Shown: positions 1 through 37,340, counted from the stretch's first letter. The stretch is 42,586 bases of DNA from an uncultured Gammaproteobacteria bacterium (GCA_964432015.1 CAYSLZ010000002.1:1-42586); one strand, 5' to 3'. Program-made: numbers and translations. Notes: generated by a model from the sequence alone, not told the origin.

Positions 1-270
1 CCAACAAATACCAGCGTTCCGGGGGCAACGAATACACCTGAGCCGACGCCGACTGAAGAGCCGAGCGGATGTAAACCTTGTCCGGATGGTAGTTATGTCG
101 ATTCCGTTGCTGATTATGATTGTGACGGTACTGTAAATATGGAAGACTTCGCTGCTTGGTACGATGATTATAAAGCAGGCAGTGATTTACTCTATGGAGA
201 CTTTAATTGTAATGGAGAATTGGATCAAGGAGATGTTACTCAGTGGTATCAGGAATTACCGAAATTTTAA
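1..270 (+). CDS. C-terminal fragment of a secreted protein ending in a dockerin-like module (5' end outside window)
   Basis: Frame 1 is open from the window edge to TAA 268-270. It encodes a Pro/Thr linker (TNTPEPTPTEEPSG), then two Ca-loop-like repeats, DCDGTVNMEDF and DFNCNGELDQGDV, as in dockerin EF-hand pairs. Confidence 0.55.
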   Translation, partial: PTNTSVPGATNTPEPTPTEEPSGCKPCPDGSYVDSVADYDCDGTVNMEDFAAWYDDYKAGSDLLYGDFNCNGELDQGDVTQWYQELPKF

Positions 271-279
271 TAAAATACT

Positions 280-1398
280 ATGAAAAAACATAATAAAGAA
301 AAAATATTAGCTTTACTTTTTATAATGCCATTGTTGGCTGTTATTGCCGGTTTGGTTTTAGTTCAGCAAACACAAGAATTACGGCGGCGAGCTGCCTATG
401 GCGAAATAAACGTCCAGCTTTTACCTAGTGAACAAGAAGTAGAACTTGATGAGGAAACAGTTAATGTTCGGGTTCAGGTTTTACCGGATGAATTTTTGGT
501 CAGCGGTGGAAAATTTGGTATAAGTTATGACCCGAATATTTTAGAATTTCAATCATTTAATCTTAATGAAAAATATAATGGTTTATCACAAGCTTCAGAT
601 GAAGGTGTTGTTGAGACCGTTTCTTATTTAAAATCCGACCAGGAAGCGCCGACAGAAACTTTTAATTTAGTTACCTTAACTTTTAATTTGGTGAGTGAAG
701 GTTCAACAACTTTGTCTAAAACTGGAGAAGTTTCTTATGTTGGTTCAAGAGGGAGAGAGGGGCTAATGGATCGGGTTTTAAGTATTAATTCATTTACTAA
801 GTCAGAAGTTGATGTTTTAGCTGGTGAGCCGACACCGATTCCAACAGAACCACCTTCTGGTTGGCCGGAATTAAGCTTCAAAGTTAAATTTAGTGGAACA
901 AACTATCGAGTTGGTGATCAGGAAATAGTTGTCGATGATATTGGGACGCGTCCTGTAGACATAATTGTTAAAGGAAATGGAATTAACCAGAAGTATAAGG
1001 ATGTTATGGTTGAATTTAATGACCAAGCAGTAGGTGAAGGATATCTGGAATTAGTTGGAGTTGAGCCGGGGGATAATTATGCTGTCTTGATAAAAGGGCC
1101 GGTTCATTTAGCCCGTAGATTTTGTGTTGAAGAACAAGTAGAACACTGTTGGCTGGGTGAAGAGGAAATTAGTCTTCAGCCAGGAGAGAATAGCTTTGAT
1201 TGGACCGGGCTGAATCTAGAGCCAGGTGATATTGACCAGAATGGTGTGGTTAATAGCTCTGATTTCACAACCTTAAAACAGGCTTTAATGAGGAAAGGTG
1301 ATATTCAGGAAGATATTAATTTTAATGGTATAGTTAATGGGCAGGATATAACCTTTTTCTTACAAACACTGAGTACTAAATATGAAGATGAAATCTAA
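280..1398 (+). CDS. Membrane-anchored cohesin-domain protein with C-terminal dockerin
   Basis: N-terminal TM helix (ILALLFIMPLLAVIAGLVLV). Cohesin-like beta module (VNVRVQVLPDEFLVSGGKFGISYDPNILEF ... FNLVTLTFNLVSEGSTTL). PT linker and second beta domain. C-terminal duplicated GDIDQNGVVNSSDF / DINFNGIVNGQDI dockerin loops. Confidence 0.65.
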   Translation: MKKHNKEKILALLFIMPLLAVIAGLVLVQQTQELRRRAAYGEINVQLLPSEQEVELDEETVNVRVQVLPDEFLVSGGKFGISYDPNILEFQSFNLNEKYNGLSQASDEGVVETVSYLKSDQEAPTETFNLVTLTFNLVSEGSTTLSKTGEVSYVGSRGREGLMDRVLSINSFTKSEVDVLAGEPTPIPTEPPSGWPELSFKVKFSGTNYRVGDQEIVVDDIGTRPVDIIVKGNGINQKYKDVMVEFNDQAVGEGYLELVGVEPGDNYAVLIKGPVHLARRFCVEEQVEHCWLGEEEISLQPGENSFDWTGLNLEPGDIDQNGVVNSSDFTTLKQALMRKGDIQEDINFNGIVNGQDITFFLQTLSTKYEDEI

Positions 1399-1449
1399 CA
1401 CTTGAAAAAGGTACTTAAAAAATGTTATTAATTAATATAAGGAGAAAAA

Positions 1450-2031
1450 ATGAAATTAAATTTAAAAAAATCTAAATGGTTAGTTCCGGCTTTGGCTTTA
1501 TTAATTATTATAGAGAGTGTTCTAGTTGTTAATAGTTTGGGAACAAGCGGAGAATTTAAAACTAAAGTGCCAAGTTTGACAAAGGTTGCCGAAGAGGAAA
1601 ATCCGGCTATTATTAGTTTTCAAGGTGAAAAAGAAGCGGCTGTCGGCGAGGAGTCAAGTGTGAAAGTAGTAATGACAGCCTTAAAGAACTTGAATTTAGA
1701 TGGGGTTGATGTTTATTTAAAATACAATCCGGAAGAAGTAGAGATAATCGGGGTTGACCCGACCGATGAATTTTCTTTTGTTGCCAGAAATTGGATAGAG
1801 CCGGAGAAAGAAAGGGTTCTAGTATCTTTGGTAGAGCCGGAAGCTCCAAAGGGGGTTAATTTTGAGCCGGGCAGTCAAACTACTTTGGCTTTGGTTGAAT
1901 TTAAACCGCTTACTTCCGGGCAGACAACGCTTGAAATTTATGCTCCAAAGGGAGCCGAAGGGACAGTTCTTGCTGGGGAAGGTGAAGAATTTGAATTCAG
2001 CAAGGAGGACTTTATCTTAAATGTTGATTGA
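1450..2031 (+). CDS. Membrane-anchored single-cohesin protein
   Basis: AAGGAG RBS at 1439-1444. TM helix (WLVPALALLIIIESVLVV). Cohesin-like strands (SSVKVVMTALKNLNLDGVDVYLKYNPEEVEIIGV ... TTLALVEFKPLTSGQTTLEI). TGA stop. Confidence 0.6.
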   Translation: MKLNLKKSKWLVPALALLIIIESVLVVNSLGTSGEFKTKVPSLTKVAEEENPAIISFQGEKEAAVGEESSVKVVMTALKNLNLDGVDVYLKYNPEEVEIIGVDPTDEFSFVARNWIEPEKERVLVSLVEPEAPKGVNFEPGSQTTLALVEFKPLTSGQTTLEIYAPKGAEGTVLAGEGEEFEFSKEDFILNVD

Positions 2032-2038
2032 TAATAAT

Positions 2039-2710
2039 ATGAGAAAGCTTTTAAGAAAGGTGATTTTTCCTTTAGTTGTTTTTATTGGCTTATGGCAGGT
2101 GGGTGCTGTGTCAGCTAGTGCTGGTCCTCGGCTTCATTTCCAGCCGGATAGCGGCAATTATAATGTTGGTGATAATTTTGATGTTGTTGTCAAAATTGAT
2201 ACCGGTGATAAAGAGGCAATGGCGGTTGACGCTCTGGTTAGTTTTGACCAGAATAAATTGGAAGTTAATCAAGTGAGCACCGGCGATTTTTTTCCGGGTT
2301 TTGATTACAACATTGAAAACAGCAATGGCAAGTTAACAATTTATTCTTTTTCAGAACAGGCTTTGATGACCAAAAGTGGAGTAGGGGACATTGCAACAAT
2401 AACTTTTGAAGCAACAGCGGAAGGAACAGCAGAAACAACCTTTCTTTGTCAATCTGGAGTGGATACCGATTCTGCAATTTGGGACCAACAGGGTAATGAT
2501 TTGATTGACTGTGCTGCCTGCGGCAGTGGAAGTTACACAATTGGTAAAACTACTACAGCTAATACACCTACTCCAGAACCGACAACAGCGCCGGAGGCGC
2601 CAACACCAACTCCTAGTAGTTTGCCAGAAACCGGAATAGAAACGCCTTTAATAATTGCCGCCCTCGGAGGCGGGATTATGTTATTATTTAGCTGGATGTT
2701 AGCGTTATGA
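2039..2710 (+). CDS. Secreted cohesin-domain protein with LPXTG (LPETG) sortase anchor
   Basis: The ORF track starts at 2021. ATG 2039 gives a classical signal peptide (MRKLLRKVIFPLVVFIGLWQVGAVSASA). Cohesin-like module (NVGDNFDVVVKIDTGDKEAMAVDALVSFDQNKLEV ... GDIATITFEATAEGTAETTF). PT linker, then LPETG (2621-2635) plus a hydrophobic tail. Confidence 0.7.
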   Translation: MRKLLRKVIFPLVVFIGLWQVGAVSASAGPRLHFQPDSGNYNVGDNFDVVVKIDTGDKEAMAVDALVSFDQNKLEVNQVSTGDFFPGFDYNIENSNGKLTIYSFSEQALMTKSGVGDIATITFEATAEGTAETTFLCQSGVDTDSAIWDQQGNDLIDCAACGSGSYTIGKTTTANTPTPEPTTAPEAPTPTPSSLPETGIETPLIIAALGGGIMLLFSWMLAL

Positions 2711-3420
2711 AAAAGAAAGTAAAAACAGTTATTATTGTTGTTATTTTGCTTTTAGTAGGCGTTTTGGCTGCTGTCGGGGTAAGGACGGCAAGAACTTATT
2801 TAAGTGGTGCTTCTGGTGGTAAGGAACCGCAGAATGTTCGGGTTGAGGCAGATGTTAAGTCGGCAACAGTTACTTGGCAAACAGACAATGAGGTACAGGG
2901 TACTGTCGAGTATGGAACAACACCGGCCAGTTTGTTATTAAGAGCATTGGAAAACCAGCCGAGTACAACCCATCGGGTAGTTTTATCACCCTTGAAGGAA
3001 GCAACGACATATTATTTTCGAGTTCGGGTAGGTGATGAAGTATTTGATAATAACGGTATTCCTTATTCTTTTAAAACAAAGCAGGGTGAAGGAACAGCAG
3101 GTGAAACACAACCGGTTGAACCGACACAGTCAGCTGAACGACCAACACAACCAGACGAGTCACCAACACAGTCAGCTGAACGACCAACACAACCAGACGA
3201 ACCAACAGCAACTGAAGCTGTTGAGCCGACAACGACTGTTGAACCAACGGAAGTACCTGATGAAACTTCGGAAAGTACTGAGTCGGCAACAAAAGTGACC
3301 AGCTGTGATAAATCTGAATTTAAAGAGAAATTTGGTACCAGCGATTCCGAATATGACTTTGATGATAATGGGGTAGTCAATAGTCGTGACTGGATTCAAT
3401 GTCTTAACCAGAATAAATAA
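2707..3420 (+). CDS. Membrane-anchored FN3-like protein with a repeat linker and a single dockerin-like loop
   Basis: ATGA overlap with the upstream gene. TM helix. FN3 / purple-acid-phosphatase-N-like segment (VTWQTDNEVQGTVEYGTTP...THRVVLSPLKEATTYYFRV). Duplicated PTQSAERPTQPDE linker. C-terminal DFDDNGVVNSRDW loop. Confidence 0.5.
   Translation: MKKKVKTVIIVVILLLVGVLAAVGVRTARTYLSGASGGKEPQNVRVEADVKSATVTWQTDNEVQGTVEYGTTPASLLLRALENQPSTTHRVVLSPLKEATTYYFRVRVGDEVFDNNGIPYSFKTKQGEGTAGETQPVEPTQSAERPTQPDESPTQSAERPTQPDEPTATEAVEPTTTVEPTEVPDETSESTESATKVTSCDKSEFKEKFGTSDSEYDFDDNGVVNSRDWIQCLNQNK
3121..3204 (+). repeat. 42-nt tandem duplication (2 copies) inside the linker of CDS 2707-3420
   Basis: ccgacacagtcagctgaacgaccaacacaaccagacgagtca is followed by a near-identical copy. 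It encodes PTQSAERPTQPDES/P twice. Confidence 0.9.
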
Positions 3421-13416: not shown

Positions 13417-13677
13417 ATGCAGCAAGTAGTATCAATTACATCGCAAGGTCAAATGACAATTCCTGCTAGTATGAAGAGAAAATTGAATTTTGACAATAAA
13501 GCCCTTGTAAAGGTTAGGGGGAAAAAACTGGTTGTAGAACCGGTTGGAGATATATTGAAACTTGGGGGTGTTTTTAAGGATAAAGCCTTAAAAGATAAAT
13601 CTATTGAGGAGATAATTGAGTTGGAGAAGAAAGCGGTTGTTGAGGCAATATCCAAGGATGAATTGAAAAATGACTAA
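13417..13677 (+). CDS. AbrB/SpoVT-type antitoxin (VapB-like)
   Basis: 86 aa. SQGQMTIPASMKRKLNF...KVRGKKLVVEP looped-hinge-helix pattern. Overlaps the downstream PIN gene by 8 nt. Confidence 0.7.
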   Translation: MQQVVSITSQGQMTIPASMKRKLNFDNKALVKVRGKKLVVEPVGDILKLGGVFKDKALKDKSIEEIIELEKKAVVEAISKDELKND

Positions 13678-14053
13678 AAATTATCTTGTAGATACTAATG
13701 TTTTTCTACGTTATTTCCTTCAGGATAACGAAGAACAGTATCAAAAGGCAAAAAAATGGTTAAACAAGGCCAAGAAAAAGAAGTTTAATCTGGTTGTTTT
13801 TCCCCAGGTGATTTTTGAAATAAATTATGTGCTTTCGAACGTATACGGATTGAGTAAAAAAGAGGTTGCGGATTGTTTAAAAGAAATTATTGTTACTCCA
13901 TATTTGGAAATTATAGATAGAGGAGTTCTTCTGTCAACAATAAATGAGTTTAGGAAAATAAATGTCGATTTGATTGACATTTATTTGCATTTTCAGGCCA
14001 AAGACAAAAAAGCAAAAGTACTCACTTTTGATAAGGATTTTAACAAGTTGTAG
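13670..14053 (+). CDS. vapC: PIN-domain toxin (VapC-like)
   Basis: 127 aa. YLVDTNVFLRYF N-terminal acidic motif and later D residues (LIDIYL, TFDKDF) typical of PIN. Confidence 0.7.
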   Translation: MTKNYLVDTNVFLRYFLQDNEEQYQKAKKWLNKAKKKKFNLVVFPQVIFEINYVLSNVYGLSKKEVADCLKEIIVTPYLEIIDRGVLLSTINEFRKINVDLIDIYLHFQAKDKKAKVLTFDKDFNKL

Positions 14054-15324: not shown

Positions 15325-16125
15325 TTATTCTTCGGAAGTTAGGGTAGGGGAGGCGTCGGTAGATTCTGGGGCGGTTTGACCAGATTCAGTAGCCGCTTCT
15401 GATTCTGATTCTGATTCTGATTCTTCTTCTGCTGCTTCAGGTGAAGAGATAACGAGCAGCTCTTCCACTTTATAGGTAGCAGTATTACCGTTAGTTGGGG
15501 AAGTAATAACGACAATTTTTTGATTTGTAGCTAAATCTTGATATTCAATTTCTCCTGTTTCACTATCCTGACGTTTTTTCATGGTTGAATTTTGATCAAA
15601 TATTAGTTCATAACTTTCCTCACCGTTTTTAATGAGGATTATTTCATCCTGTGCTGCTTTTTCAGTGATTGTTCCAAAAAATGACTGTCTTTCCCGCGGT
15701 TCTTTTTCTCCCACTAAAACTATTCTTCTGGCATCTAAACTGCCGTCTACTTGAACATAGCCCATGACAATTGCCCGCTGATTTGTTTCCAGGTCCTGAA
15801 AATCGATTTTTTGGCGGTTTTGGTTAATAATTACTGCTTCGTCGTTTAAAACTGTTGTTCGAATATCTTCGTTGACATTAATTTTAAACCCGGTTGCACT
15901 AGTTTCAGTGATTGTTCCAATCCAGCCCCTTTTTTCTTCTTTATTCAGTATTTCTCCTATTTTTTCCTCAATTTTATCTTTAACAGCGTCACGGACTCCT
16001 TTAGTTTTTGGGTCAACTGTTGGTGTGGGACTAGTTGTTGAGGTTTCCTGTGCCTGTGATCTAAAAGGCAGGAAAAAAATACTGGCGGCGGTTAAACTGA
16101 TAATCAAGAAAAACTTTTTATTCAT
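15325..16125 (-). CDS. Secreted hypothetical protein with two internal repeats and an acidic SE-rich tail
   Basis: Signal peptide MNKKFFLIISLTAASIFFLPFRSQAQE. Two related ~70-aa beta-rich segments (GTITE...). C-terminal ESESESE. Confidence 0.45.
   Translation of the reverse strand: MNKKFFLIISLTAASIFFLPFRSQAQETSTTSPTPTVDPKTKGVRDAVKDKIEEKIGEILNKEEKRGWIGTITETSATGFKINVNEDIRTTVLNDEAVIINQNRQKIDFQDLETNQRAIVMGYVQVDGSLDARRIVLVGEKEPRERQSFFGTITEKAAQDEIILIKNGEESYELIFDQNSTMKKRQDSETGEIEYQDLATNQKIVVITSPTNGNTATYKVEELLVISSPEAAEEESESESESEAATESGQTAPESTDASPTLTSEE
15397..15423. repeat. Hexanucleotide microsatellite (TTCTGA)x4 within the coding sequence
   Basis: ttctgattctgattctgattctgattc on the + strand encodes the (SE)n tract of CDS 15325-16125. 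Confidence 0.9.
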
Positions 16126-16138
16126 TGTCTTTAGCTAT

Positions 16139-16582
16139 TTAAAATTTAGCAGTAGAATAGGTAACTGTCAAGGTTTGGGTAGCTTTATTACCTTGATTGT
16201 CATAGGAAGAAATATTAATTATGTTTTCTCCGCCAATAAGTTCAATATTCGTTTCAAACTCCCCATTCTTATCGGCAACTGAAATTTCTTCCCCTTCTTC
16301 CCAAATGACGACAATTGTGGCGTTGGGTATTGTTTCGCCTTTGATGATTAAATTTTCGTTGGAAGCAACAATTTCATTGTCTGGTTGAATGATGTTTAAA
16401 AAAACCTCTTTTTCAGTTGTTTTAGTTGGAATTGCTGTTGGGGTGGTTTGTGCTAGGGTTGGCGAGGTTTGATTATTTAAAGCTAGTTTTTTTTGACCTT
16501 TGTTTTTAGTCCAAAGAAAAGCGCTTATCCCAAAGCCAAGAAGTATTCCGATAAAAATTGCTACACCCAATTCCTTTTTCAT
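16139..16582 (-). CDS. Membrane-anchored protein with an Ig-like beta-sandwich domain
   Basis: ATG 16582 (MKKELGVAIFIGILLGFGISAFLW) is preferred over the track start 16639. PT linker, then IIQPDNEIVASNENLIIKGETIPNATIVV...DKNGEFE Big-like pattern. Confidence 0.45.
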   Translation of the reverse strand: MKKELGVAIFIGILLGFGISAFLWTKNKGQKKLALNNQTSPTLAQTTPTAIPTKTTEKEVFLNIIQPDNEIVASNENLIIKGETIPNATIVVIWEEGEEISVADKNGEFETNIELIGGENIINISSYDNQGNKATQTLTVTYSTAKF

Positions 16583-16707
16583 CCTTACTCTTATAATATG
16601 AAAACCCTCAGGTGATGTCAAGCAGGAGTTTTGATACATTATGATATATTATTTATCATTTAACATTTGACAATTAGCATTTGGCCTTGAGCATTAAGCT
16701 TTAAGCT

Positions 16708-22039: not shown

Positions 22040-22805
22040 ACGCGCTTATTTTCTAATCTCGAGTATAATTTTAACAATAATTTTTGGTTTATTAAATCTT
22101 GTTTCCTTTCAATGGAAATATGCTGGTATTGTTGGGTTTTCAGTTGGGGTAGCTGTTTATCAGGCTATACTTTTTTATTTTATGGTTGATAAAAAAACTA
22201 ACTTGGTAATCAGCGGCGTTTTACCTGCTTTTTTTGGCTTAGGAACAAGTTTATTCAGGTTTTTATTTGCCGTTAACTGGATTTGGCAGTCGATTTTAGT
22301 TTTAGTATTTTTATTTGGTATTTATACTTTGTTTTTAGTAGAAAATGTATTTTTGGTTTCCACTGAGGTTAAAACAGTTCCGCTTTATCGAGCAGCTAGT
22401 ACGGTTGGTTTTTTAATTACACTGATTACTGCTTTTTTTCTTTATGAAGTAATTTTTTCATTTCGTTTACCAGTATGGCAGAACAGCTTGTTAATTTTGG
22501 GAGCAAGTTTGCCTTTACTAAATCATTATTTTTGGTCAATAAGATTAAATCAGCCTTTAAGCTGGAAAAATATAAGGTTATCGCTAGTTTTTGCCTTAAT
22601 AATGGCTGAAATGGCAGCGGCAGTTTCGTTTTGGCCTTTAGAAACAACCAAATCAGCTCTTTATCTTGGCAGTGTCTTTTACGTCTTTTTAGGTTTGGCT
22701 CAAGCATATTGTCAGGAAAAACTATTTAAACAAACTATTCGTGAATTTATATTAGTTGGGTTAGGCACGTTAATGGCTTTGTTTTTAGTGACCAGCTGGC
22801 GTTGA
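22032..22805 (+). CDS. Hypothetical polytopic membrane protein
   Basis: About 8 predicted TM helices, no recognisable motif, overlaps the yebC end. Confidence 0.45.
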   Translation: MTKRAYFLISSIILTIIFGLLNLVSFQWKYAGIVGFSVGVAVYQAILFYFMVDKKTNLVISGVLPAFFGLGTSLFRFLFAVNWIWQSILVLVFLFGIYTLFLVENVFLVSTEVKTVPLYRAASTVGFLITLITAFFLYEVIFSFRLPVWQNSLLILGASLPLLNHYFWSIRLNQPLSWKNIRLSLVFALIMAEMAAAVSFWPLETTKSALYLGSVFYVFLGLAQAYCQEKLFKQTIREFILVGLGTLMALFLVTSWR

Positions 22806-22853
22806 TAAGGCTTAGATATATAGTCGAGTAGAGAAGTGGTCCAAAACTAAAGC

Positions 22854-22925
22854 GTCCTATAATAGTATTTATAAATATCCTATAATACAATATCCTCTTC
22901 GTGAAAATTATAGGACTATTTTCAC
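22854..22925 (+). promoter_or_regulatory. Nested, mutually exclusive inverted repeats containing three TCCTATAAT boxes
   Basis: GTCCTATAAT (22854-63) is the reverse complement of ATTATAGGAC (22907-16). GTGAAAAT (22901-08) pairs with ATTTTCAC (22918-25). A third TCCTATAATA lies at 22878-87. Confidence 0.5.
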
Positions 22926-23224
22926 ATTTAGCAGTCGCAATCCTTAATTGATAATTAAATATAACTACTAAAGTTAATCCGGAGAATACGCAAAAAATAG
23001 CTACTAAATGTGGAAAAGTTCACTTGAGAAGTTAACCCCTCTTCAATCTGTTAGCTTGGTTAAATCAGCTTTTATGAGGTTCTAATCAACAACTGCCAAA
23101 ATATAAACATGGCTGATCAAACAAAAAGTGTTATTTTTGCTTCTCTCGTTGACAGCTTATTGGTGTTTATTAAGAATAAAAAGATTGATAGATAGATGTT
23201 AATTGGGGAAGCTTCGCTTACTGT

Positions 23225-23248
23225 GTCGCACAATGTTTCTTTTGCGAC
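23225..23248. promoter_or_regulatory. Inverted repeat GTCGCA-N12-TGCGAC (candidate protein or recombinase binding site)
   Basis: GTCGCAcaatgtttctttTGCGAC. The left decamer GTCGCACAAT recurs at 23745-23754. Confidence 0.4.
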
Positions 23249-23654
23249 GCGATAAATAGTAGGAGAGTGAAGAGGATTAAAAGTTTAAAGTTTCAGCTAA
23301 AGGCTGATGGGCCTCTGGCCCAAAAATTTAAATATTTATTTTGGATTATTTATTTTTGAATTTTTTGACTTCTTCTAATTTAACTTTTTCGATTTAAATT
23401 TATATTCAACCATTTCCCCACTACTCTTTGATAAAAAATATGCAATAAATAAATTTTGACTGCAGAGCTGATGACCAAAGATACTGCTATATTATTAAAA
23501 ATGCCTTAGAATGCCTCTAACGAGTTTATGCCTCTAGATTGGTAGAATATTAATATTGTTGCAATACACTACTGTTTAATTGTAATTATTTATAAAAATT
23601 ATTGCTGATTACTGTCTATATTTTTTGTGGTTTGCTAATTACAATAAAAACTTT

Positions 23655-23676
23655 AGTCCAGATTAAGTCCAGATTA
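23655..23676 (+). repeat. Tandem 11-mer AGTCCAGATTA x2
   Basis: agtccagatta agtccagatta, perfect copies, about 120 nt upstream of the recombinase start. Confidence 0.85.
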
Positions 23677-23740
23677 CCTCCAGCTAGAAAAACGGTCCGG
23701 ATAAGATGATGGCTGCAAAATTATCGTTGGTGGTTTTTTT
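23676..23740 (+). terminator. Terminator-like long hairpin followed by a T7 run
   Basis: ACCTCCAGC (23676-84) pairs with GTTGGTGGT (23726-34), 8 of 9 positions including one G-U, and is followed by TTTTTTT (23734-40). Confidence 0.3.
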
Positions 23741-23744
23741 CAAC

Positions 23745-23754
23745 GTCGCACAAT
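23745..23754 (+). repeat. Second copy of GTCGCACAAT, abutting a TTGACA hexamer upstream of the recombinase gene
   Basis: caacGTCGCACAATtTTGACA, with TTGACA at 23756-61 and the ATG at 23794. Confidence 0.5.
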
Positions 23755-23793
23755 TTTGACAGAAATAAAAAGATGTGCTAGTTTTAAATTAGA

Positions 23794-24771
23794 ATGGTTA
23801 AATCAAAAAATAAAAAACAAAACAAACTCAGTAAAAATCTTTGGACAATGGTTGATAAGTTTTTAGAAGCTTTGGAAATTGAACGCAACTGTTCTCCATT
23901 AACTATTCGGAATTATCGTCATTATTTAAAAAGGTTTAATAGGTTTTTAAAAAACGATGATAAAGACTACTCCCCTACTCTATCCGATCTTACCCTGGAA
24001 AATATACGGAAATTCCGACTTCATTTAGCCAGAATTAAAACTCGCAAGGGAACTTTTTTAAAAAAGAAAACCCAGGGTTACCACATAATTGCTTTGCGGT
24101 CATTTTTAAGCTGGTTGATTAAAGATAATTATAATGTGGTTGCACCTGATAAGATTGATTTGCCCAAAACACCAGAAAGACAGGTAAAATTTTTAAATGA
24201 GAAACAGCTAAATAAATTTTTAAATCAGCCTCAAATTTCAACTAAAATTGGTTTAAGAGATAAAGCTATTTTGGAAACTTTGTTTTCAACTGGTTTAAGA
24301 GTTAGTGAATTAGTAAGTTTAGATCGGAATGAGATTAATCTAAAAACTCAAGAGGTTGGTGTGGTTGGTAAAGGCCAAAAAGCGCGTGTTGTTTTTCTTT
24401 CTGACCGGGCAGTAAAATGGCTTGATCGCTATTTAGTTTCCCGCGATGACCATTATGACCCGTTGTTTATAAGATATTCTGGTAAAAAAGATCCGTCTAT
24501 GGATGATGAAGAAATGCGGCTTTCAGCCCGGTCGGTTCAAAGACTAGTTGAAAAATATCGTAAAAAAGCAAAAATACCAATCAAGGTGACTCCGCATGTT
24601 TTGCGTCATTCATTTGCTACTGATCTTCTTCGTCAGGGAGCCGATCTTCGGTCTGTTCAGGAACTGCTTGGGCATAAAAACATTTCCACAACTCAAATTT
24701 ATACCCACGTTACCGACCGCCATCTCCACGAAACTCACAAAAAGTACCACTCTGGCAATAAAGAATCCTAA
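23794..24771 (+). CDS. xerC: Tyrosine recombinase, XerC/XerD family
   Basis: N-terminal SAM-like core-binding domain (FLEALEIERNCSPLTIRNYRHYL). Catalytic set GLRVSEL (R), GKGQKAR (K), HVLRHSFAT (HxxR), LGHKNISTTQIYTHV (H, Y). Confidence 0.9.
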   Translation: MVKSKNKKQNKLSKNLWTMVDKFLEALEIERNCSPLTIRNYRHYLKRFNRFLKNDDKDYSPTLSDLTLENIRKFRLHLARIKTRKGTFLKKKTQGYHIIALRSFLSWLIKDNYNVVAPDKIDLPKTPERQVKFLNEKQLNKFLNQPQISTKIGLRDKAILETLFSTGLRVSELVSLDRNEINLKTQEVGVVGKGQKARVVFLSDRAVKWLDRYLVSRDDHYDPLFIRYSGKKDPSMDDEEMRLSARSVQRLVEKYRKKAKIPIKVTPHVLRHSFATDLLRQGADLRSVQELLGHKNISTTQIYTHVTDRHLHETHKKYHSGNKES

Positions 24772-24776
24772 AACCT

Positions 24777-24812
24777 TTTTAAAGATAGTGTTACGATCGT
24801 ATTGCTATTTTG
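24777..24812 (+). repeat. Copy 1 of a 32-nt perfect direct repeat / imperfect palindrome
   Basis: TTTTAAAGATAGTGTTACGATCGTATTGCTAT (24777-24808), starting 5 nt after the xer stop. Stem AAAGATAG/CTATTTTG includes one G-U. Central ACGATCGT palindrome. Confidence 0.9.
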
Positions 24813-24845
24813 ACAATTGAATATATTTTGGTGTAGAAATAGTTA

Positions 24846-25518
24846 ATGAGGAAGAAGAGATCAAAGACACTACAAATACTTGCTGCGGCTGAAGATCTTA
24901 TGCTTAATTTTGGAGACTATTTTAGCCGAGATAGGAGAAAAGGAACTGACTTAGCTGAGTGGTTAAGTATTGGCACGCGGGCGACCACATATTATTTTGT
25001 CAAAAAGGGTGTATTAAACCCGGATTTGACATTTAAGGAAAAACCAAATTCGATTTTAAGATTAATAAAAAAACCATGGGATGGTAAATGGAGATTTGTT
25101 ATTTTTGATATTCCTCAGAAAGAGGTTAATTTCAGAAATATTATTAGACGACGCTTGAAAGAATTGGACTTTAGGCAGTTGCAGCGTTCTGTTTGGTTTT
25201 CACCCTTACCCCTTACGCAAAGTTGTGAAAAAAATGGATAAACGAGTCGATGATTACAATTACTTGACTGTAATAGAAGGTAAGATATATCGTGATGATC
25301 CAAAAAGGATTGTTAGAAATAAATGGGAAATTGATGATTGGAGGCAACGTGTACTAAACTGGAAGAATTTAATTCAAGACAAGAGAAAACTTAGTGAAAT
25401 AAACCAAAAAACCTTTTGGAATTTAGTTTTGGACCATCCAAAGGTTCCTCTGGATCTTCTTCCTAAAAATTGGCCCTTAAAAGATTTAGTGAAACAATTT
25501 GACTTGAGAAAGTTTTAA
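24846..25518 (+). pseudogene. PaaX-like regulator (wHTH + central Cas2-like domain + C-terminal domain) split by a frameshift in an A7 run
   Basis: ORF 24846-25241 ends ...WDGKWRFVIFDIPQKEVNFRNIIRRRLKELDFRQLQRSVWFSP.. (PaaX central Cas2-like signature). ORF 25225-25518 continues in the +1 frame. Removing one A from A7 (25228-25234) fuses them (..SCEKMDKRVDDY..). Confidence 0.55.
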
Positions 25519-25548
25519 AGATAGTGTTACGATCGTATTGCTATCTTT
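25513..25548 (+). repeat. Copy 2 of the 32-nt perfect direct repeat; here the stem is a perfect 8 bp
   Basis: TTTTAAAGATAGTGTTACGATCGTATTGCTAT (25513-25544) followed by CTTT. AAAGATAG/CTATCTTT pair perfectly. It overlaps the TAA stop of the PaaX-like gene. Confidence 0.9.
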
Positions 25549-25613
25549 AATAATTAAATATAATTATGGTGGGGATAAGTTCTGCCTTTACACTTTATTT
25601 ACATCTCGCTTAG

Positions 25614-33431: not shown

Positions 33432-34385
33432 TTATTCGGCTTTATCTTCAATTAAGTCAGTGATAAGTTTGTTTAATCTAACGGCGGCGACGCCGACTGC
33501 CTGGTCGGCTCCACCGTAATACACGTAGAGTGTACCGTTTATGACAACTGCTCCGCAGGGATAGACCACATTATTGACCTCTCCTTCCAGTTCAAATTGC
33601 ATTCTTGGCTCAAGCAAGGGATATTTTGACCGGGCAATTACTTGAGTTGGGTTATCAAGGTCAAGGAGCATTGCCCCTACCCGATAATGCCGGTCTTTAT
33701 TGGCAATTCCGTGGTACAAAAGCAGCCAGCCGGCTTCTGTTTTTATTGGCGGGGCGGCAATACCGATTTTTCGGTCATCCCAACTGTTAGCTCCGGTTTT
33801 AAACCAAAGGCTACCTTTAATCCATTTTTTTTCTTTTTTAAACTCCAAGTCGTCAACAAAGTCTAACCAAATACCCGGATAAATGCGGTGAAAAATTCCG
33901 TATTTACCGTCCTTCATATTGGGAACAATACAAGAGTTTTTGTCATCAATTCCGGGAGGCGAGATTAATTTTGGTTTAGCCCATTTCCATCTGCGGTTTA
34001 AAAAATCATCAATTTTTATTGATGACATAGCGATTCTGGTTGGGCCGACCCCATCATAAGCTGTGTAGCAAATATAAAGTCGATCGCCAATTTGGGTTAT
34101 CCGCGGGTCTTCACAACCAGAATATGCACCTTGTTTTTTCTTTTTTTCTTCTTTAATTCTCGGAACATAAATTGGCCGTGGGTATCTCTCTGATATTGTA
34201 AATCCATCCTCACTAATCGCGTAGCCTAAAGTAGAAGTATTGTTTTTTGCTGTTGCCCGATAAAGAATATGAACTTTATTGTCCAAATATATGGCGGCTG
34301 GATTAAAGGTTAGTTTCGCCTCCCACTCGTGTTCTGGAATCGGTGTAATTATCGGGTTTCTGACGTACCTTTTTAGTCTAATCAT
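33432..34385 (-). CDS. GH130-family glycoside phosphorylase/hydrolase (DUF377-type beta-propeller)
   Basis: NPIITP..HEWEAKLTFNPAAI, VHILYRA, SGCEDPRIT, LYICYTAYDG, IGIAAPPIKT..GWLLLYHG, YYGGAD. Confidence 0.8.
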   Translation of the reverse strand: MIRLKRYVRNPIITPIPEHEWEAKLTFNPAAIYLDNKVHILYRATAKNNTSTLGYAISEDGFTISERYPRPIYVPRIKEEKKKKQGAYSGCEDPRITQIGDRLYICYTAYDGVGPTRIAMSSIKIDDFLNRRWKWAKPKLISPPGIDDKNSCIVPNMKDGKYGIFHRIYPGIWLDFVDDLEFKKEKKWIKGSLWFKTGANSWDDRKIGIAAPPIKTEAGWLLLYHGIANKDRHYRVGAMLLDLDNPTQVIARSKYPLLEPRMQFELEGEVNNVVYPCGAVVINGTLYVYYGGADQAVGVAAVRLNKLITDLIEDKAE

Positions 34386-35346
34386 TGGTTAGTTCGTTAA
34401 GTAAATCTTTTAATGAACAAGTTGCCAAACAGCAATAGGTATCGGTTCCTCCGTAGTAAATATGGAGTCTGTCATTTTCAACTAATTCCCCGCTTGGAAA
34501 AACAACTTCAGGAATAATACCTTCTCTTTCGTATTTTTTTTCAGGGATTAATAAGGGAAAATTAGAGCGGCCGATTACTTGTTTTGGCTTTTTGGGGTCT
34601 AAAAGAGCCGCCTCAATATTAAATATTCTTTTTTGTTCATTAAAATAATTATTGATGTAGGAATAAATTAACAGCCATCCTTTATTAGTTTTGATTGGTG
34701 GGGCTCCAACCTCCACGTGGTCCTGAGGTCTTCTGATTAAACGCAAGGTATGGGTTTCTAGTTCATCCAGCCAATTATCCCAATAATCTTTGTTCCAAAT
34801 ATCACTGATTTGTTTAAATTCCGCCGTTGCAACATTTACCGGGGGTTGATCAGTTTGGGCGCTTAAGATAGCAAATATTTTGCCGTTTATTTTTTCCGGG
34901 AATAAAGCCATTGCTTTAGCATTAAAAGGAGTAACTAACCGTTTATCAGTGATTTTTTTTAGGTCAGGTGATATTGCTAAACCAACTTTAATAGTGTAGC
35001 GATTAGGGGGATGATCTGATATGGCGGTGTAAAAAATGTAGTAGTTGTTATTAAAATAAGTTACTCTTGGATCTTCACAACCGAACTTTTCCCATTCTTG
35101 TTCCGGTTTAATAAATTGACGCCGGTGGTTGAGTTTAGTTCCACATTGACCAGAAGCGATTCCAATAGTCGATAATTCAACTGTTTTGCCCTGATATTCT
35201 TGAGGATGAGATAAACCACGGTAGACAAGATAAATATTTTGTCCCTTTTTCACAGCACACCCGTTGTAAGCTCCTTTTGCTTCCCAATCGTGGTCGGGGT
35301 TAGGTGATAAAATCGGGTTATTTGGATGTCGGTTTACGTCAATCAT
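34378..35346 (-). CDS. GH130-family paralog 2
   Basis: NPILSP..HDWEAKGAYNG, IYLVYRG, FGCEDPRVT, YYIFYTA, VGAPPIKTNKGWLLIYS, IYYGGTD. Overlaps paralog 1 by 8 nt. Confidence 0.8.
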   Translation of the reverse strand: MIDVNRHPNNPILSPNPDHDWEAKGAYNGCAVKKGQNIYLVYRGLSHPQEYQGKTVELSTIGIASGQCGTKLNHRRQFIKPEQEWEKFGCEDPRVTYFNNNYYIFYTAISDHPPNRYTIKVGLAISPDLKKITDKRLVTPFNAKAMALFPEKINGKIFAILSAQTDQPPVNVATAEFKQISDIWNKDYWDNWLDELETHTLRLIRRPQDHVEVGAPPIKTNKGWLLIYSYINNYFNEQKRIFNIEAALLDPKKPKQVIGRSNFPLLIPEKKYEREGIIPEVVFPSGELVENDRLHIYYGGTDTYCCLATCSLKDLLNELTND

Positions 35347-35350
35347 TGTT

Positions 35351-37204
35351 TTAGTTTATCGTATTCCATTGGTTAAGGCAACGGCTGTTTTGTTTTTTAA
35401 GTGAACTGACCAGGCTTTCTATTTTTGTGTAAGCAACACAACTGACTGTATCTGCTCCTCCGTAATAAACAAGCAGTTTTTTATCTTTAACTGCTGCACC
35501 GCAAGCATAAACCACGCCGCTTTTAAAGCCTACGTTTTCATAGTCCATATCCGGCTCAAGGAGTGGATAATTAGTTCGATATTTTATTTTAGTTGGGTCA
35601 TTACTCTCTAAAATCATTGCCCCTACTTTATATCTTCCCGGGTCGTGGTTATCCATGGCGTGATAAAAAATCAGCCAGCCGTCATTTGTTTTTATTGGTG
35701 TCGGGCCGACTCCCCTCATCCAGTTGTCCCAGTGATTTTTTCTTCCAGAAGGAGAATAATAACTTTTGATTGGCCCGTTTTTGTCAAAGTTTAAATCATC
35801 AAAATAATCAACCAAAATTTTGGGCGATAAACTGTGTAAAACAGCATATTTACCGTTAATTTTGTCTGGAAATAATGCCCAATTTTTATGGATTTCTCCC
35901 TTTGGTGAGAGTCTGGTTGGTTCCGACCAGTTCCAATTTTGATTTTTAAAATCATTTACTTTTATTGAAGTAAGTGCGACCCCGGGTGGTTCGACGCCGT
36001 TCCAGGCAGTATAAGTCATGTAAATAGTATCTTTTATTTTAGTTAATTTTGGGTCCTCACAGCCGCCGCATCCCCATCCAGAGGTATAATGATAGGTTGC
36101 TTTTGGAGCTTGGCGGTTTATTTCAAATTTTTCTCTGGGAATGTAAGCGGGCTTATTTGAACGGTAGTCTATTTCAAATCCGCTTTTTGTGTTAGCGTAG
36201 CCAAAAACGGAAATATCATTTTCACCTACCGCCCGGTATATCAAGTGAATTTTATCGTCGATGTTAACAGCAGCAGGATTAAAGACTAATTTTGACTCCC
36301 ATTTATTTTCTGGTTTTGGCTCTAAAATCGGGTTTTTCTTATGCCTTTTAAGTTTTTCAAGGTAAGGAAAAGGAGATGGCCCGGTTGAATCTCTGATTTC
36401 AAAAAACGGTTGAGTTAAAGCATAGATATTTTCACTGCCGATTTGCCAATAAGAAATTAATTTATTTTTTAATTTAACCGCCCCAAGAGGGTTAATTTTT
36501 GTTTCAGTTGTGGTTGGTATAGAGGCACTGATTGGTATTTGCTTCGACCAAATAATTTGTTGAGGATTATCCTTATCAACCAGCAGTAACTGCCAGGAGT
36601 AATCTTCCCAGATATCCGGATCTTGATAACGGTAAAGAAGGATTAATATTCCTTGCTGATGATTGAAAATTTGACAAATTTTAAGATTGGTTTGGCCTAA
36701 AATCTTTTCTTTAGGTTGAAAAATTGTTTTTCTTTTTTGAGGTTGACGGGTAAGTTTTTTAAAATATCCTAAATCAATTTTTTTTCTGCCGAATATTAAT
36801 CTTTTTTCTTTTTTGGGGAAGGGAATAAGCATTCCTGCCTCATGAATAGAGTCAACTTTTTCATCTTCTGACCATTTTATTAAATCCGGTGATTGACGAT
36901 ATTTTAAATAGTATCGGTCTTTATCTTTCTCCAGAAAAGTCAGTAGATATTTATTTTTGATTCTACTAACTCGGAAATCTTTTATTTTTGGCTTTTTATT
37001 AAACCATGGCCAACGTGGTGGAAAGGAAAGTTTATCATTTATTGGTCGAAAATTTAATCCATTTTTATCAGAAAGTGCAATATTAAACGGATAATTTTTT
37101 TTTGTTGAATAAAAAAGAACAGCTTTATTTTCAAGTTTTGCCACACCTAAACCAGATAGGAAAAAACGACTGCGGCTAGTATCTTTGTTTTGAGCTGGTG
37201 TCAT
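35351..37204 (-). CDS. GH130-family paralog 3 with a ~330-aa N-terminal extension
   Basis: The C-terminal half has NPILEP..NKWESKLVFNPAAV, IHLIYRA, GGCEDPKLT, IYMTYTAWNG, VGPTPIKTNDGWLIFYHA, VYYGGAD. ATG 37204 is chosen because the track ORF's first 38 codons overlap tRNA-Tyr. Confidence 0.75.
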   Translation of the reverse strand: MTPAQNKDTSRSRFFLSGLGVAKLENKAVLFYSTKKNYPFNIALSDKNGLNFRPINDKLSFPPRWPWFNKKPKIKDFRVSRIKNKYLLTFLEKDKDRYYLKYRQSPDLIKWSEDEKVDSIHEAGMLIPFPKKEKRLIFGRKKIDLGYFKKLTRQPQKRKTIFQPKEKILGQTNLKICQIFNHQQGILILLYRYQDPDIWEDYSWQLLLVDKDNPQQIIWSKQIPISASIPTTTETKINPLGAVKLKNKLISYWQIGSENIYALTQPFFEIRDSTGPSPFPYLEKLKRHKKNPILEPKPENKWESKLVFNPAAVNIDDKIHLIYRAVGENDISVFGYANTKSGFEIDYRSNKPAYIPREKFEINRQAPKATYHYTSGWGCGGCEDPKLTKIKDTIYMTYTAWNGVEPPGVALTSIKVNDFKNQNWNWSEPTRLSPKGEIHKNWALFPDKINGKYAVLHSLSPKILVDYFDDLNFDKNGPIKSYYSPSGRKNHWDNWMRGVGPTPIKTNDGWLIFYHAMDNHDPGRYKVGAMILESNDPTKIKYRTNYPLLEPDMDYENVGFKSGVVYACGAAVKDKKLLVYYGGADTVSCVAYTKIESLVSSLKKQNSRCLNQWNTIN

Positions 37205-37257
37205 TAGATACAGATTAGCATATTTTGAATTTGATTTGCAAGGAAGAGTTTTTTTTG

Positions 37258-37340
37258 TCCAGGGGGTAGGATTCGAACCTACGCAGGGAAAACCCGACGG
37301 TTTTACAGACCGTTCCATTTGACCACTCTGGCACCCCTGG
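37258..37340 (-). tRNA. tRNA-Tyr (anticodon GTA), long variable arm, C1-G72, no encoded CCA
   Basis: The reverse complement is CCAGGGG-TG-CCA-GAGTGGTCAAA-TGG-A-ACGGT-CTGTAAA-ACCGT-CGGGTTTTCCCTGC-GTAGG-TTCGAAT-CCTAC-CCCCTGG-A. All stems pair. Confidence 0.9.

What the first reader, a model, noticed from the sequence alone, without database searches (positions are those of the whole stretch)
1..3420. Five consecutive cohesin/dockerin-module genes with no enzyme partner
Seen: five co-oriented, tightly spaced or overlapping genes. Three carry cohesin-like beta modules (280-1398, 1450-2031, 2039-2710). Three carry dockerin-like Ca-loop repeats (1-270, 280-1398, 2707-3420). Every complete protein has a TM anchor or a signal peptide, and one has LPETG. 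One protein has both a cohesin and a dockerin, so chains or networks are possible. Established: cohesin-dockerin pairs build cellulosomes in Clostridia, where dockerins sit on glycoside hydrolases. Here no catalytic domain is attached to any dockerin. Inference: this is a non-cellulolytic, self-assembling surface scaffold. In a reduced genome it could mediate cell-cell or host attachment.
Basis: partly seen in the sequence, partly recalled or inferred. Interest (0 to 1): 0.7.

Follow-up and report, generated by a model that had tools for sequence, protein, structure and literature searches.

The report
Mini scaffoldin gene cluster in Patescibacteria
A small-genome (Patescibacteria-type) bacterium carries a conserved operon-like cluster of surface-anchored cohesin and dockerin proteins, laid out like a miniature cellulosome scaffold cluster; the dockerin-tagged partners found so far are mostly cysteine-rich proteins with no recognisable enzyme domain.

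Summary
Window 1-3420 encodes five co-oriented, tightly packed genes made of cohesin and dockerin modules, and none carries a catalytic domain.

- **280-1398:** Coh-X-Doc. Its AF2 model matches the C. thermocellum CipA CohI9-X-DocII end and dozens of solved cohesins.
- **2039-2710:** a clear Pfam cohesin, followed by LPETG and a hydrophobic tail.
- **1450-2031:** a membrane-anchored, probable cohesin. Three independent lines support it, all weak.
- **2707-3420:** an fn3-like domain plus only one Ca loop, so not a full dockerin.
- **1-270:** the cut first gene is, in full, a 412-aa protein with two cohesin-like modules and a Cys-containing dockerin.

The four complete genes are syntenic in at least 7 related MAG loci. 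In four of the five loci that extend downstream, yqeY-ybeY-dnaX follow. The layout parallels the Ruminococcus flavefaciens sca cluster (ScaA/ScaB-XDoc/ScaE-LPXTG).

"No enzyme partner" is true for the cluster but unproven for the genome. Proteins with the same Cys-type dockerin are mostly 6-11% Cys, and none of those scanned has a recognisable catalytic domain. However, one metagenome contig encodes a pectate lyase with a closely related form of this dockerin.

"Cellulosome" components have already been reported in CPR Microgenomates. I read this as a new variant of a known kind, of moderate interest.

The parts
1..270 (+). 3' end of gene 1. The full protein is P0078 (412 aa): N-terminal helix with QNLETRRGAA motif, two cohesin-like modules, a Pro/Thr linker, and a Cys-containing 'type A' dockerin (Ca loops at nt 112-147 and 199-234). 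It looks like an adaptor scaffoldin, ScaA-like.
   Evidence: Translation. Loops. The full-length protein, 100% identical over the 69-aa query (window 61-267), was recovered. Two cohesin modules by custom HMM, full E 9.7e-8. Pfam Cohesin 19.2 bits, sub-threshold. Pfam Dockerin_1 15 bits, sub-threshold.
280..1398 (+). Coh-X-Doc protein (372 aa). N-terminal helix with QELRRRAAYG motif (about nt 304-366), cohesin (about nt 394-831), beta-sandwich X-like module with 2 invariant Cys (about nt 862-1209), and a two-loop dockerin (about nt 1216-1395). Proposed mini primary scaffoldin.
   Evidence: Pfam Dockerin_1 27.4 bits (above GA) and Cohesin 21.8 bits. AF2 model. Foldseek top hits are CipA CohI9-X-DocII (4fl4_C, 3kcp_A; E 2e-12, about 349 aligned columns), followed by many cohesins. 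Profile hits to solved dockerins. Family alignment A1.
1450..2031 (+). 193-aa protein: N-terminal membrane helix plus one probable, divergent cohesin module. Proposed membrane-anchored cohesin.
   Evidence: Pfam Cohesin 22.5 bits, E 1.4e-4. hhalign against the LPETG-cohesin family, E 1.7e-4. PDB profile best hits are NagJ cohesins. Custom HMM. Conserved in 8 orthologs. Single-sequence AF2 failed, pLDDT 41.
2039..2710 (+). 223-aa protein: Sec signal peptide (..ASA|G), cohesin, Pro/Thr linker, LPETG (nt 2621-2635) and a C-terminal hydrophobic tail. Proposed anchoring scaffoldin, ScaE-like.
   Evidence: Pfam Cohesin 52.5 bits. 38 homolog clusters, all 215-266 aa and all with Pfam Cohesin. LP[ED][TA]G and tail conserved.
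2707..3420 (+). 237-aa protein: N-terminal membrane helix, fn3-like domain (N-terminal-domain type of purple acid phosphatase, with no phosphatase domain), Pro/Thr/Glu linker, and a Cys-bracketed single EF-hand-like Ca loop (nt 3355-3390). This is a 'half dockerin'.
   Evidence: Pfam Pur_ac_phosph_N 39.7 bits, fn3 20.1 bits. Only one loop. C-terminal module of about 42 aa is highly conserved, with invariant C200 and C232.

Best explanation
The region is the downstream half of a conserved scaffoldin-type gene cluster of a Patescibacteria (CPR) bacterium. It encodes a small cohesin-dockerin assembly on the cell surface.

**Proposed wiring (inferred, not shown).**
1. The LPETG cohesin (2039-2710) and the membrane-helix cohesin (1450-2031) are the cell-bound anchors.
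2. The Coh-X-Doc protein (280-1398) plugs into an anchor through its X-dockerin. This would mirror CipA with SdbA, or ScaB with ScaE. Its own cohesin is then offered outward.
3. The 2xCoh-Doc protein (gene 1) acts as an adaptor that multiplies binding sites.
4. Cargo proteins carrying the clade-specific Cys-containing dockerin are hung on these cohesins. They are mostly large, Pro/Thr-linked and 6-11% cysteine, and none of those scanned has a recognisable catalytic domain. At least one relative has a pectate lyase as cargo.
5. The fn3 protein with a single Ca loop is an accessory surface component.

The likely role is Ca-dependent display of binding or adhesive proteins, and possibly some glycan-active proteins, on a cell that has no outer membrane.
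For: **Shown.**
- Module identities.
- The same Coh-X-Doc order as the CipA C-terminus, by structure search.
- All proteins carry export or anchor signals.
- Tight co-orientation of the genes.
- The four complete genes are syntenic in L002/L005, L004, L007, L008, L009, L010 and L011. In L002, yqeY-ybeY-dnaX follow them, as in the window.
- Upstream extension in relatives adds more cohesin proteins and dockerin-tagged proteins, most of them Cys-rich.
- The full-length gene 1 product is 2xCoh+Doc.
- The type-A dockerin family has only 17 representatives among 1.84 billion proteins. They are adaptors or Cys-rich cargo, and the ten scanned have no enzyme Pfam domain.
- A pectate lyase carries a closely related form of this dockerin.

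**From established knowledge.** XDoc-ScaE anchoring and the content of the sca cluster (PMC5301203).
Against: - No cohesin-dockerin pairing was tested; the tools offered no multimer prediction.
- Two cohesin calls and one dockerin call are below Pfam thresholds.
- The dockerin part of the AF2 model has low confidence (pLDDT 33-50).
- The fifth protein has only one Ca loop.
- No sortase signature (TLxTC) is found in the window or within 10 kb of any related locus.
- The LPETG tail lacks the usual positively charged end.
- What the cargo does is unknown: no Pfam or PDB match.
- The rest of the genome was not available.
Confidence: 0.55

Rival explanations
1. It is an ordinary, if minimal, cellulosome-like system. 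The cluster is just the scaffoldin (sca-type) locus, and dockerin-bearing carbohydrate-active enzymes encoded elsewhere in the genome are the real cargo. The function would be polysaccharide degradation.
For: - A pectate lyase carries a clade-specific dockerin on L018. L018 comes from the same metagenome accession (Ga0180430) as L017, which encodes a cluster ortholog.
- A GH39 lies next to the cluster in L008, L009 and L011.
- Three GH130 genes lie in the window.
- sca clusters of true cellulosome producers also lack enzymes.
- Published work interprets cohesin/dockerin proteins of CPR Shapirobacterales and Roizmanbacterium as a cellulosome.
Against: - Among the type-A dockerin proteins examined, only one is an enzyme. 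The set comprises 17 representatives from the library search plus the proteins encoded in the related loci; ten representatives and the locus-encoded cargo were scanned against Pfam.
- No scaffoldin-like protein has a CBM.
- The GH39 and GH130 proteins carry no dockerin.
- L018 is a 2.5-kb contig whose organism is unproven.
Confidence: 0.25
2. The modules do not pair with each other. The cohesin-like beta-sandwiches and EF-hand-like Ca loops are independent structural or adhesive domains of surface proteins (for example Ca-stabilised stalks or glycan binders). They would be co-located only because they are co-regulated envelope components.
For: - Several module scores are sub-threshold.
- One protein has a single loop.
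- Non-cellulosomal cohesin- and dockerin-like modules of unknown function are widespread (Peer et al. 2009, as cited in PMC10066038).
- EF-hand models score nearly as well as Dockerin_1 on gene 1.
Against: - Cohesins and dockerins co-occur in one conserved cluster across at least 7 loci.
- The Coh-X-Doc order is identical to a known anchoring dyad.
- The same dockerin type recurs on otherwise unrelated cargo proteins. This is the hallmark of a docking tag.
Confidence: 0.15

Closest known systems
Ruminococcus flavefaciens sca gene cluster (ScaC-ScaA-ScaB-CttA-ScaE)
   Same: - A dedicated cluster of scaffoldin genes without enzymes.
- A 2-cohesin+dockerin protein (like ScaA).
- A cohesin protein ending in an X-dockerin (like ScaB).
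- A single-cohesin protein with LPXTG (like ScaE).
- A non-catalytic, dockerin-tagged surface protein (like CttA).

See PMC5301203.
   Different: - Patescibacteria rather than Firmicutes.
- One cohesin instead of many on the X-Doc protein.
- An extra membrane-helix cohesin.
- The cargo dockerin carries 3-4 conserved Cys.
- Cargo is mostly Cys-rich and non-catalytic.
- No CBM.
- Sequence similarity to known modules is only marginal.
Clostridium thermocellum CipA C-terminus (CohI9-X-DocII) bound to SdbA cohesin II (PDB 3kcp, 4fl4)
   Same: It is the best structural match to the 372-aa protein, with the same cohesin - X module - dockerin order over about 349 aligned columns.
   Different: - Domain orientations differ (rmsd 16-19 A over the whole chain).
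- CipA has 9 cohesins and a CBM3, and is held by SLH-anchored proteins.
- The dockerin part of the model here has low confidence.
Non-cellulosomal cohesin-dockerin systems (Clostridium perfringens NagJ/NagH toxin-glycosidase complexes; Archaeoglobus fulgidus cohesin)
   Same: Cohesin-dockerin modules are used outside cellulose degradation. NagJ cohesins are the nearest PDB sequences to two of the window cohesins, and 2jh2 and 2xdh are among the structural hits.
   Different: Those modules sit on large enzymes or isolated proteins. They do not form a multi-gene scaffoldin cluster with anchors and adaptors.
Reported 'cellulosome' components of CPR Microgenomates (Ca. Shapirobacterales BG1-G2; Ca. 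Roizmanbacterium)
   Same: Cohesin- and dockerin-domain proteins in CPR genomes, reported as expressed genes in groundwater (PMC9123182).
   Different: Those reports rest on domain annotation only. No cluster architecture, dockerin subtypes or cargo analysis was given. Whether they belong to the same protein families as here was not tested.

Membership tests
Cohesin module (Pfam PF00963) | Score at or above the Pfam gathering threshold (24.1 bits) | tested here: inconclusive
   2039-2710: 52.5 bits (met). 280-1398: 21.8 bits, 1450-2031: 22.5 bits and P0078: 19.2 bits (all below)..
Cohesin module (Pfam PF00963) | Beta-sandwich fold superposable on solved cohesins | tested here: met
   Tested for the 280-1398 protein only. 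Foldseek E 1e-9 to 1e-7 and target TM 0.7-0.77 to 4ums, 6kgf, 1g1k, 2vn5 and 2xdh. The 193-aa protein's model failed, pLDDT 41. The 2039-2710 protein was not modelled.
Cohesin module (Pfam PF00963) | Binds a dockerin | not testable with these tools
   No multimer prediction or binding assay was available.
Dockerin (Pfam PF00404) | Two duplicated segments, each a 12-residue Ca loop (D/N at positions 1, 3, 5 and 9; D/E at 12) followed by a helix | tested here: inconclusive
   Met in gene 1 and in 280-1398, with two loops each and starts 28-29 residues apart. Not met in 2707-3420, which has a single loop..
Dockerin (Pfam PF00404) | Score at or above the Pfam gathering threshold (22.9 bits) | tested here: inconclusive
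   280-1398: 27.4 bits (met). Gene 1: 15.0 bits (not met). 2707-3420: no hit.. The A1 profile hits solved dockerins at E 2e-5.
Cellulosome (multi-enzyme polysaccharide-degrading complex) | Dockerins borne by carbohydrate-active enzymes of the same organism | tested here: inconclusive
   None in the 42.6-kb window. None in the related clusters. One pectate lyase with a closely related form of the clade dockerin on metagenome contig L018. The whole genome was not available.
Cellulosome (multi-enzyme polysaccharide-degrading complex) | Scaffoldin carries a substrate-targeting CBM | tested here: not met
   No CBM family was hit in any cluster protein of the window, L002 or L009.
Cellulosome (multi-enzyme polysaccharide-degrading complex) | Cell-surface anchoring scaffoldin (SLH or LPXTG) | tested here: met
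   A cohesin protein with a conserved LP[ED][TA]G motif and a hydrophobic tail.
Sortase-anchored LPXTG surface protein | LPXTG, a hydrophobic segment and a positively charged C-terminal tail, with a sortase in the genome | tested here: inconclusive
   The motif and hydrophobic segment are present and conserved. There is no charged tail (it ends ..SWMLAL). Pfam Gram_pos_anchor scores 13.1 bits against GA 20. No TLxTC sortase motif in the window or in any fetched locus.
sca-type scaffoldin gene cluster (R. flavefaciens) | Clustered genes for an adaptor (Coh+Doc), an X-Doc scaffoldin and a single-cohesin LPXTG anchor, where the XDoc binds the anchor cohesin | tested here: inconclusive
   Gene content and order are analogous. 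The XDoc-anchor interaction could not be tested. Sequence relationship is at the module-superfamily level only.

The most novel reading that the evidence does not exclude
A Patescibacteria-specific "adhesosome". In this reading, a cohesin-dockerin scaffold serves mainly to display disulfide-rich, non-catalytic proteins rather than to organise enzymes. Some of these proteins have knottin-like cysteine spacing, and they are attached through a Cys-containing dockerin subtype. The display would mediate attachment to, or manipulation of, a host cell by an episymbiont.
Probability: 0.3. Interest if true: 0.75.

Novelty: new variant of a known kind. Interest (0 to 1): 0.55.

Why it matters
How CPR/Patescibacteria cells build their surface and attach to hosts is largely unknown beyond type IV pili. 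A conserved, compact cohesin-dockerin cluster gives a directly testable molecular model: a handful of small modules, Ca-dependent binding, and defined anchors.

If the cargo proves to be adhesins rather than enzymes, it would extend the cohesin-dockerin principle from enzyme organisation to symbiont-host contact. It would also correct the current habit of reading any CPR cohesin/dockerin hit as a "cellulosome".

If the cargo proves to be enzymes, it is the smallest scaffoldin system known, in a reduced genome. The Cys-containing dockerin and its cognate cohesins could also serve as orthogonal parts for designer scaffolds.

Tried and rejected
1. **The window's own contig.** I tried to recover the 47.7-kb NCBI contig to see the genes upstream. 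Only a 3.2-kb Logan copy was retrievable.
2. **Genome-contig scan with the single protein.** It found nothing. The alignment-based scan gave 13 loci.
3. **Word-indexed protein search with the type-A dockerin alignment.** Only 2 short hits, so the search was wasted. The exhaustive HMMER search worked instead.
5. **Structure of the 193-aa protein.** The single-sequence model reached only pLDDT 41 and is unusable.
7. **Sortase search by motif.** None found in the window or in any locus.
8. **Cargo identity.** Pfam even at E<=5, NCBIfam and PDB gave nothing for the Cys-rich cargo.
9. **Promoter and terminator scans.** Uninformative.
10. **Chance or artefact.** Rejected. The modules are conserved, syntenic and structurally confirmed.
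11. **Taxonomy below phylum level.** Not obtained. Most related MAG records are titled "uncultured Gammaproteobacteria", which I regard as a labelling artefact: the named homologs found in the protein searches are all Patescibacteria, and two of the more distant loci are titled Patescibacteria and Paceibacterota.


Full report
**What is in the sequence.** Window 1-3420 holds five co-oriented + strand ORFs: 1-270 (3' end only), 280-1398, 1450-2031, 2039-2710 (alternative ATG at 2021) and 2707-3420. They are separated by 9, 51 and 7 nt, and the last pair overlaps by 4 nt. Downstream come an S21-like ORF, yqeY, ybeY, dnaX, cysS and other housekeeping genes. The window is AT-rich (GC 0.37). Its gene content and its homologs point to Patescibacteria/CPR.

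**Module identification.**
- 2039-2710 scores 52.5 bits on Pfam Cohesin.
- 280-1398 scores 27.4 bits on Dockerin_1 (above threshold) and 21.8 bits on Cohesin (just below).
- 1450-2031 scores 22.5 bits on Cohesin (just below).
- 2707-3420 has an fn3-like Pur_ac_phosph_N domain (39.7 bits) and no phosphatase domain.
- The 1-270 fragment scores only 15 bits on Dockerin_1.

A regular-expression scan of all six frames finds five dockerin-type Ca loops in the whole window, all inside these genes. Gene 1 has two, 280-1398 has two and 2707-3420 has one. Its single loop nevertheless sits in a strongly conserved helix-loop-helix of about 42 aa, bracketed by two invariant Cys.

**Structural confirmation.** An AF2 model of the 372-aa protein was built on 18 homologs (mean pLDDT 71). 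The cohesin part is at about 90, the middle beta-sandwich at 62-87, and the dockerin is poor at 33-50. Foldseek against the PDB gives the C. thermocellum CipA CohI9-X-DocII constructs as top hits (4fl4_C, 3kcp_A; E about 2e-12, about 349 aligned columns). Dozens of type I/II/III cohesins follow, including the non-cellulosomal ones of C. perfringens and A. fulgidus, with target TM 0.7-0.77. The family profile also hits many solved dockerins by sequence, for example 1ohz_B at 2e-5 and 3kcp_A at 5e-4. The protein is therefore Coh-X-Doc.

For the 193-aa protein the evidence is weaker but consistent. It comprises the Pfam near-hit, hhalign to the LPETG-cohesin family (E 1.7e-4, prob 49.5%), NagJ cohesins as best PDB profile hits, and a custom cohesin HMM that reaches E 2e-8 in the best ortholog. 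Its single-sequence model failed.

**The cut first gene.** An exhaustive HMMER search with the gene 1 dockerin recovered a 412-aa protein (P0078) that is 100% identical over the 69-aa query (window 61-267). It consists of an N-terminal helix, two cohesin-like modules, a Pro/Thr linker and the dockerin. Four of the five proteins thus contain cohesins, two combine cohesin and dockerin, and none has a catalytic domain.

**Conservation and wider cluster.** The Coh-X-Doc family has only 29 clusters (at 90% identity) in 5.8 billion proteins, and the LPETG cohesin family has 38. The four complete genes occur in the same order in loci L002/L005, L004, L007, L008, L009, L010 and L011. In L002, yqeY-ybeY-dnaX follow them, as in the window.

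Upstream, relatives carry more of the same. L002 has:
- a 694-aa Cys-rich CARDB protein with a dockerin;
- a paralogous Coh-X-Doc plus 193-aa cohesin pair;
- an 833-aa Cys-rich repeat protein with a dockerin;
- a 163-aa cohesin;
- the 441-aa 2xCoh-Doc ortholog of gene 1.

L009 has 775- and 651-aa Cys-rich dockerin proteins. Pfam finds no enzyme domain in any of them.

**Dockerin types and cargo.** Three kinds are distinguishable.
- Type A is preceded by CKPCP(D)G and has a Cys at loop position 4 in both loops. It is found on gene 1 and on cargo.
- The second kind is the X-linked dockerin of Coh-X-Doc.
- The third is the single-loop module.

Among 1.84 billion representative proteins, only 17 carry type A. 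They are cohesin adaptors, Cys-rich proteins (6-11% Cys) and fragments. The ten scanned have no enzyme Pfam domain, and one tested (P0090) has no PDB sequence relative.

There is, however, an exception. Metagenome contig L018 (GC 0.40) comes from the same metagenome accession (Ga0180430) as L017, which encodes a Coh-X-Doc ortholog. L018 encodes a secreted pectate lyase (9buj E 8.8e-44; PelZ-like 2.7e-51). Its C-terminal dockerin is 51% identical, without gaps and with the same Cys pattern, to the dockerins of L009's cluster-encoded cargo. It is 37% identical to the window's dockerin.

A membrane-anchored GH39 without a dockerin lies divergently upstream of the cluster in L008, L009 and L011. 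The window itself has three GH130 genes without dockerins.

**Mechanism.** The layout mirrors known scaffoldin systems. In R. flavefaciens the sca cluster encodes ScaC, ScaA, ScaB, CttA and ScaE. The XDoc of ScaB binds the single cohesin of ScaE, which is sortase-anchored through LPXTG (PMC5301203).

By analogy I propose the following. The X-dockerin of the 372-aa protein binds one of the two cell-bound cohesins. Its own cohesin and those of the 2xCoh adaptor take up type-A dockerin cargo. All pairings are inference, because no multimer prediction was possible.

Weak points are that no sortase was found nearby, that the LPETG tail has no positively charged end, and that the cargo has no known function.

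**Comparison with the literature.** Non-cellulosomal cohesin/dockerin modules are known across the three domains (Peer et al. 2009, cited in PMC10066038). Cohesin- and dockerin-domain genes were reported as expressed in Ca. Shapirobacterales, and "cellulosomes" were reported in Ca. Roizmanbacterium. Both are CPR Microgenomates, and both findings were read as cellulose degradation (PMC9123182). A dockerin-domain protein is essential in a cultivated Saccharibacterium (PMC10633639). I found no paper that describes the cluster architecture, the Cys-type dockerin or the cargo.

**Verdict.** The "self-assembling surface scaffold" reading is plausible and fits the anatomy. "No enzyme partner / non-cellulolytic" is not established and is partly contradicted by the dockerin-tagged pectate lyase in a relative. 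I class it as a new variant of a known kind, with interest about 0.55.

Noticed in passing
window 280-400; L002, L007, L008, L009, L011 cluster proteins; P0078-P0157: Most cluster proteins, the cargo proteins and the neighbouring GH39 share an N-terminal motif: a hydrophobic helix followed by L-V-x-x-x-Q-E-T-R-R-x-A-A (in the window, VQQTQELRRRAAYG and VRQNLETRRGAAGG). It looks like a clade-specific export or processing signal. I know of no description of it.
   Followed up: partly
L002 5596-8097; L009 3806-6133 and 6673-8628; P0080-P0090, P0123, P0146: The dockerin-tagged cargo proteins are 6-11% cysteine, joined by Pro/Thr linkers. Some repeats have knottin-like spacing (C-x6-C-x5-CC-x3-C-x10-C). 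No Pfam, NCBIfam or PDB match. P0146 adds a C-terminal cohesin after its dockerin.
   Followed up: partly
L018 215-1909: A secreted pectate lyase, followed by thrombospondin-type-3-like Ca repeats and a clade-specific Cys-containing dockerin. It is the only enzyme found with this kind of dockerin.
   Followed up: yes
L008 1540-2934 (-), L009 2081-3448 (-), L011 7182-8678 (-): A membrane-anchored GH39 glycoside hydrolase (Pfam 1e-30 in L009) lies divergently just upstream of the cluster in three relatives. L002 instead has Wzy_C and Bac_transf polysaccharide-synthesis genes there.
   Followed up: partly
window 33432-37315 (-): Three tandem GH130 (beta-1,4-mannooligosaccharide phosphorylase family) genes. 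The third (654 aa) has an unassigned N-terminal half of about 320 aa, and its predicted 5' end overlaps tRNA-Tyr (37257-37340), so the start is probably over-called.
   Followed up: no
window 22805-25600: About 1 kb of AT-rich sequence without a long ORF (22805-23794) precedes a tyrosine recombinase (23794-24771) and a PaaX_M-like gene. Gene orientation switches from + to - near 25.4 kb, and cumulative GC skew levels off there. This could be a terminus/dif-type region or an integration site.
   Followed up: no
window 15325-16639 (-): Two small genes on the opposite strand. One has a Glucodextran_B/Big_6 Ig-like domain and the other (265 aa) has no family hit. They may be further surface proteins.
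   Followed up: no
window 13670-14053 and 40840-41916: A PIN-domain protein and a Fic/DOC-family protein lie among the housekeeping genes.
   Followed up: no
L004-L012, L014 record titles: Ten of the 13 related loci come from MAG records titled "uncultured Gammaproteobacteria bacterium". The named homologs found in the protein searches are Patescibacteria, and two of the more distant loci (L013, L015) are titled Patescibacteria and Paceibacterota. The titles look like placeholder mislabels.
   Followed up: no
window 1480-1530 (residues 10-28 of the 193-aa protein): The membrane helix of the 193-aa cohesin protein contains an invariant Glu-Ser pair (..LLIIIESVLVV..) in all 9 orthologs. This is unusual for a plain anchor and may mark an intramembrane contact.
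   Followed up: no
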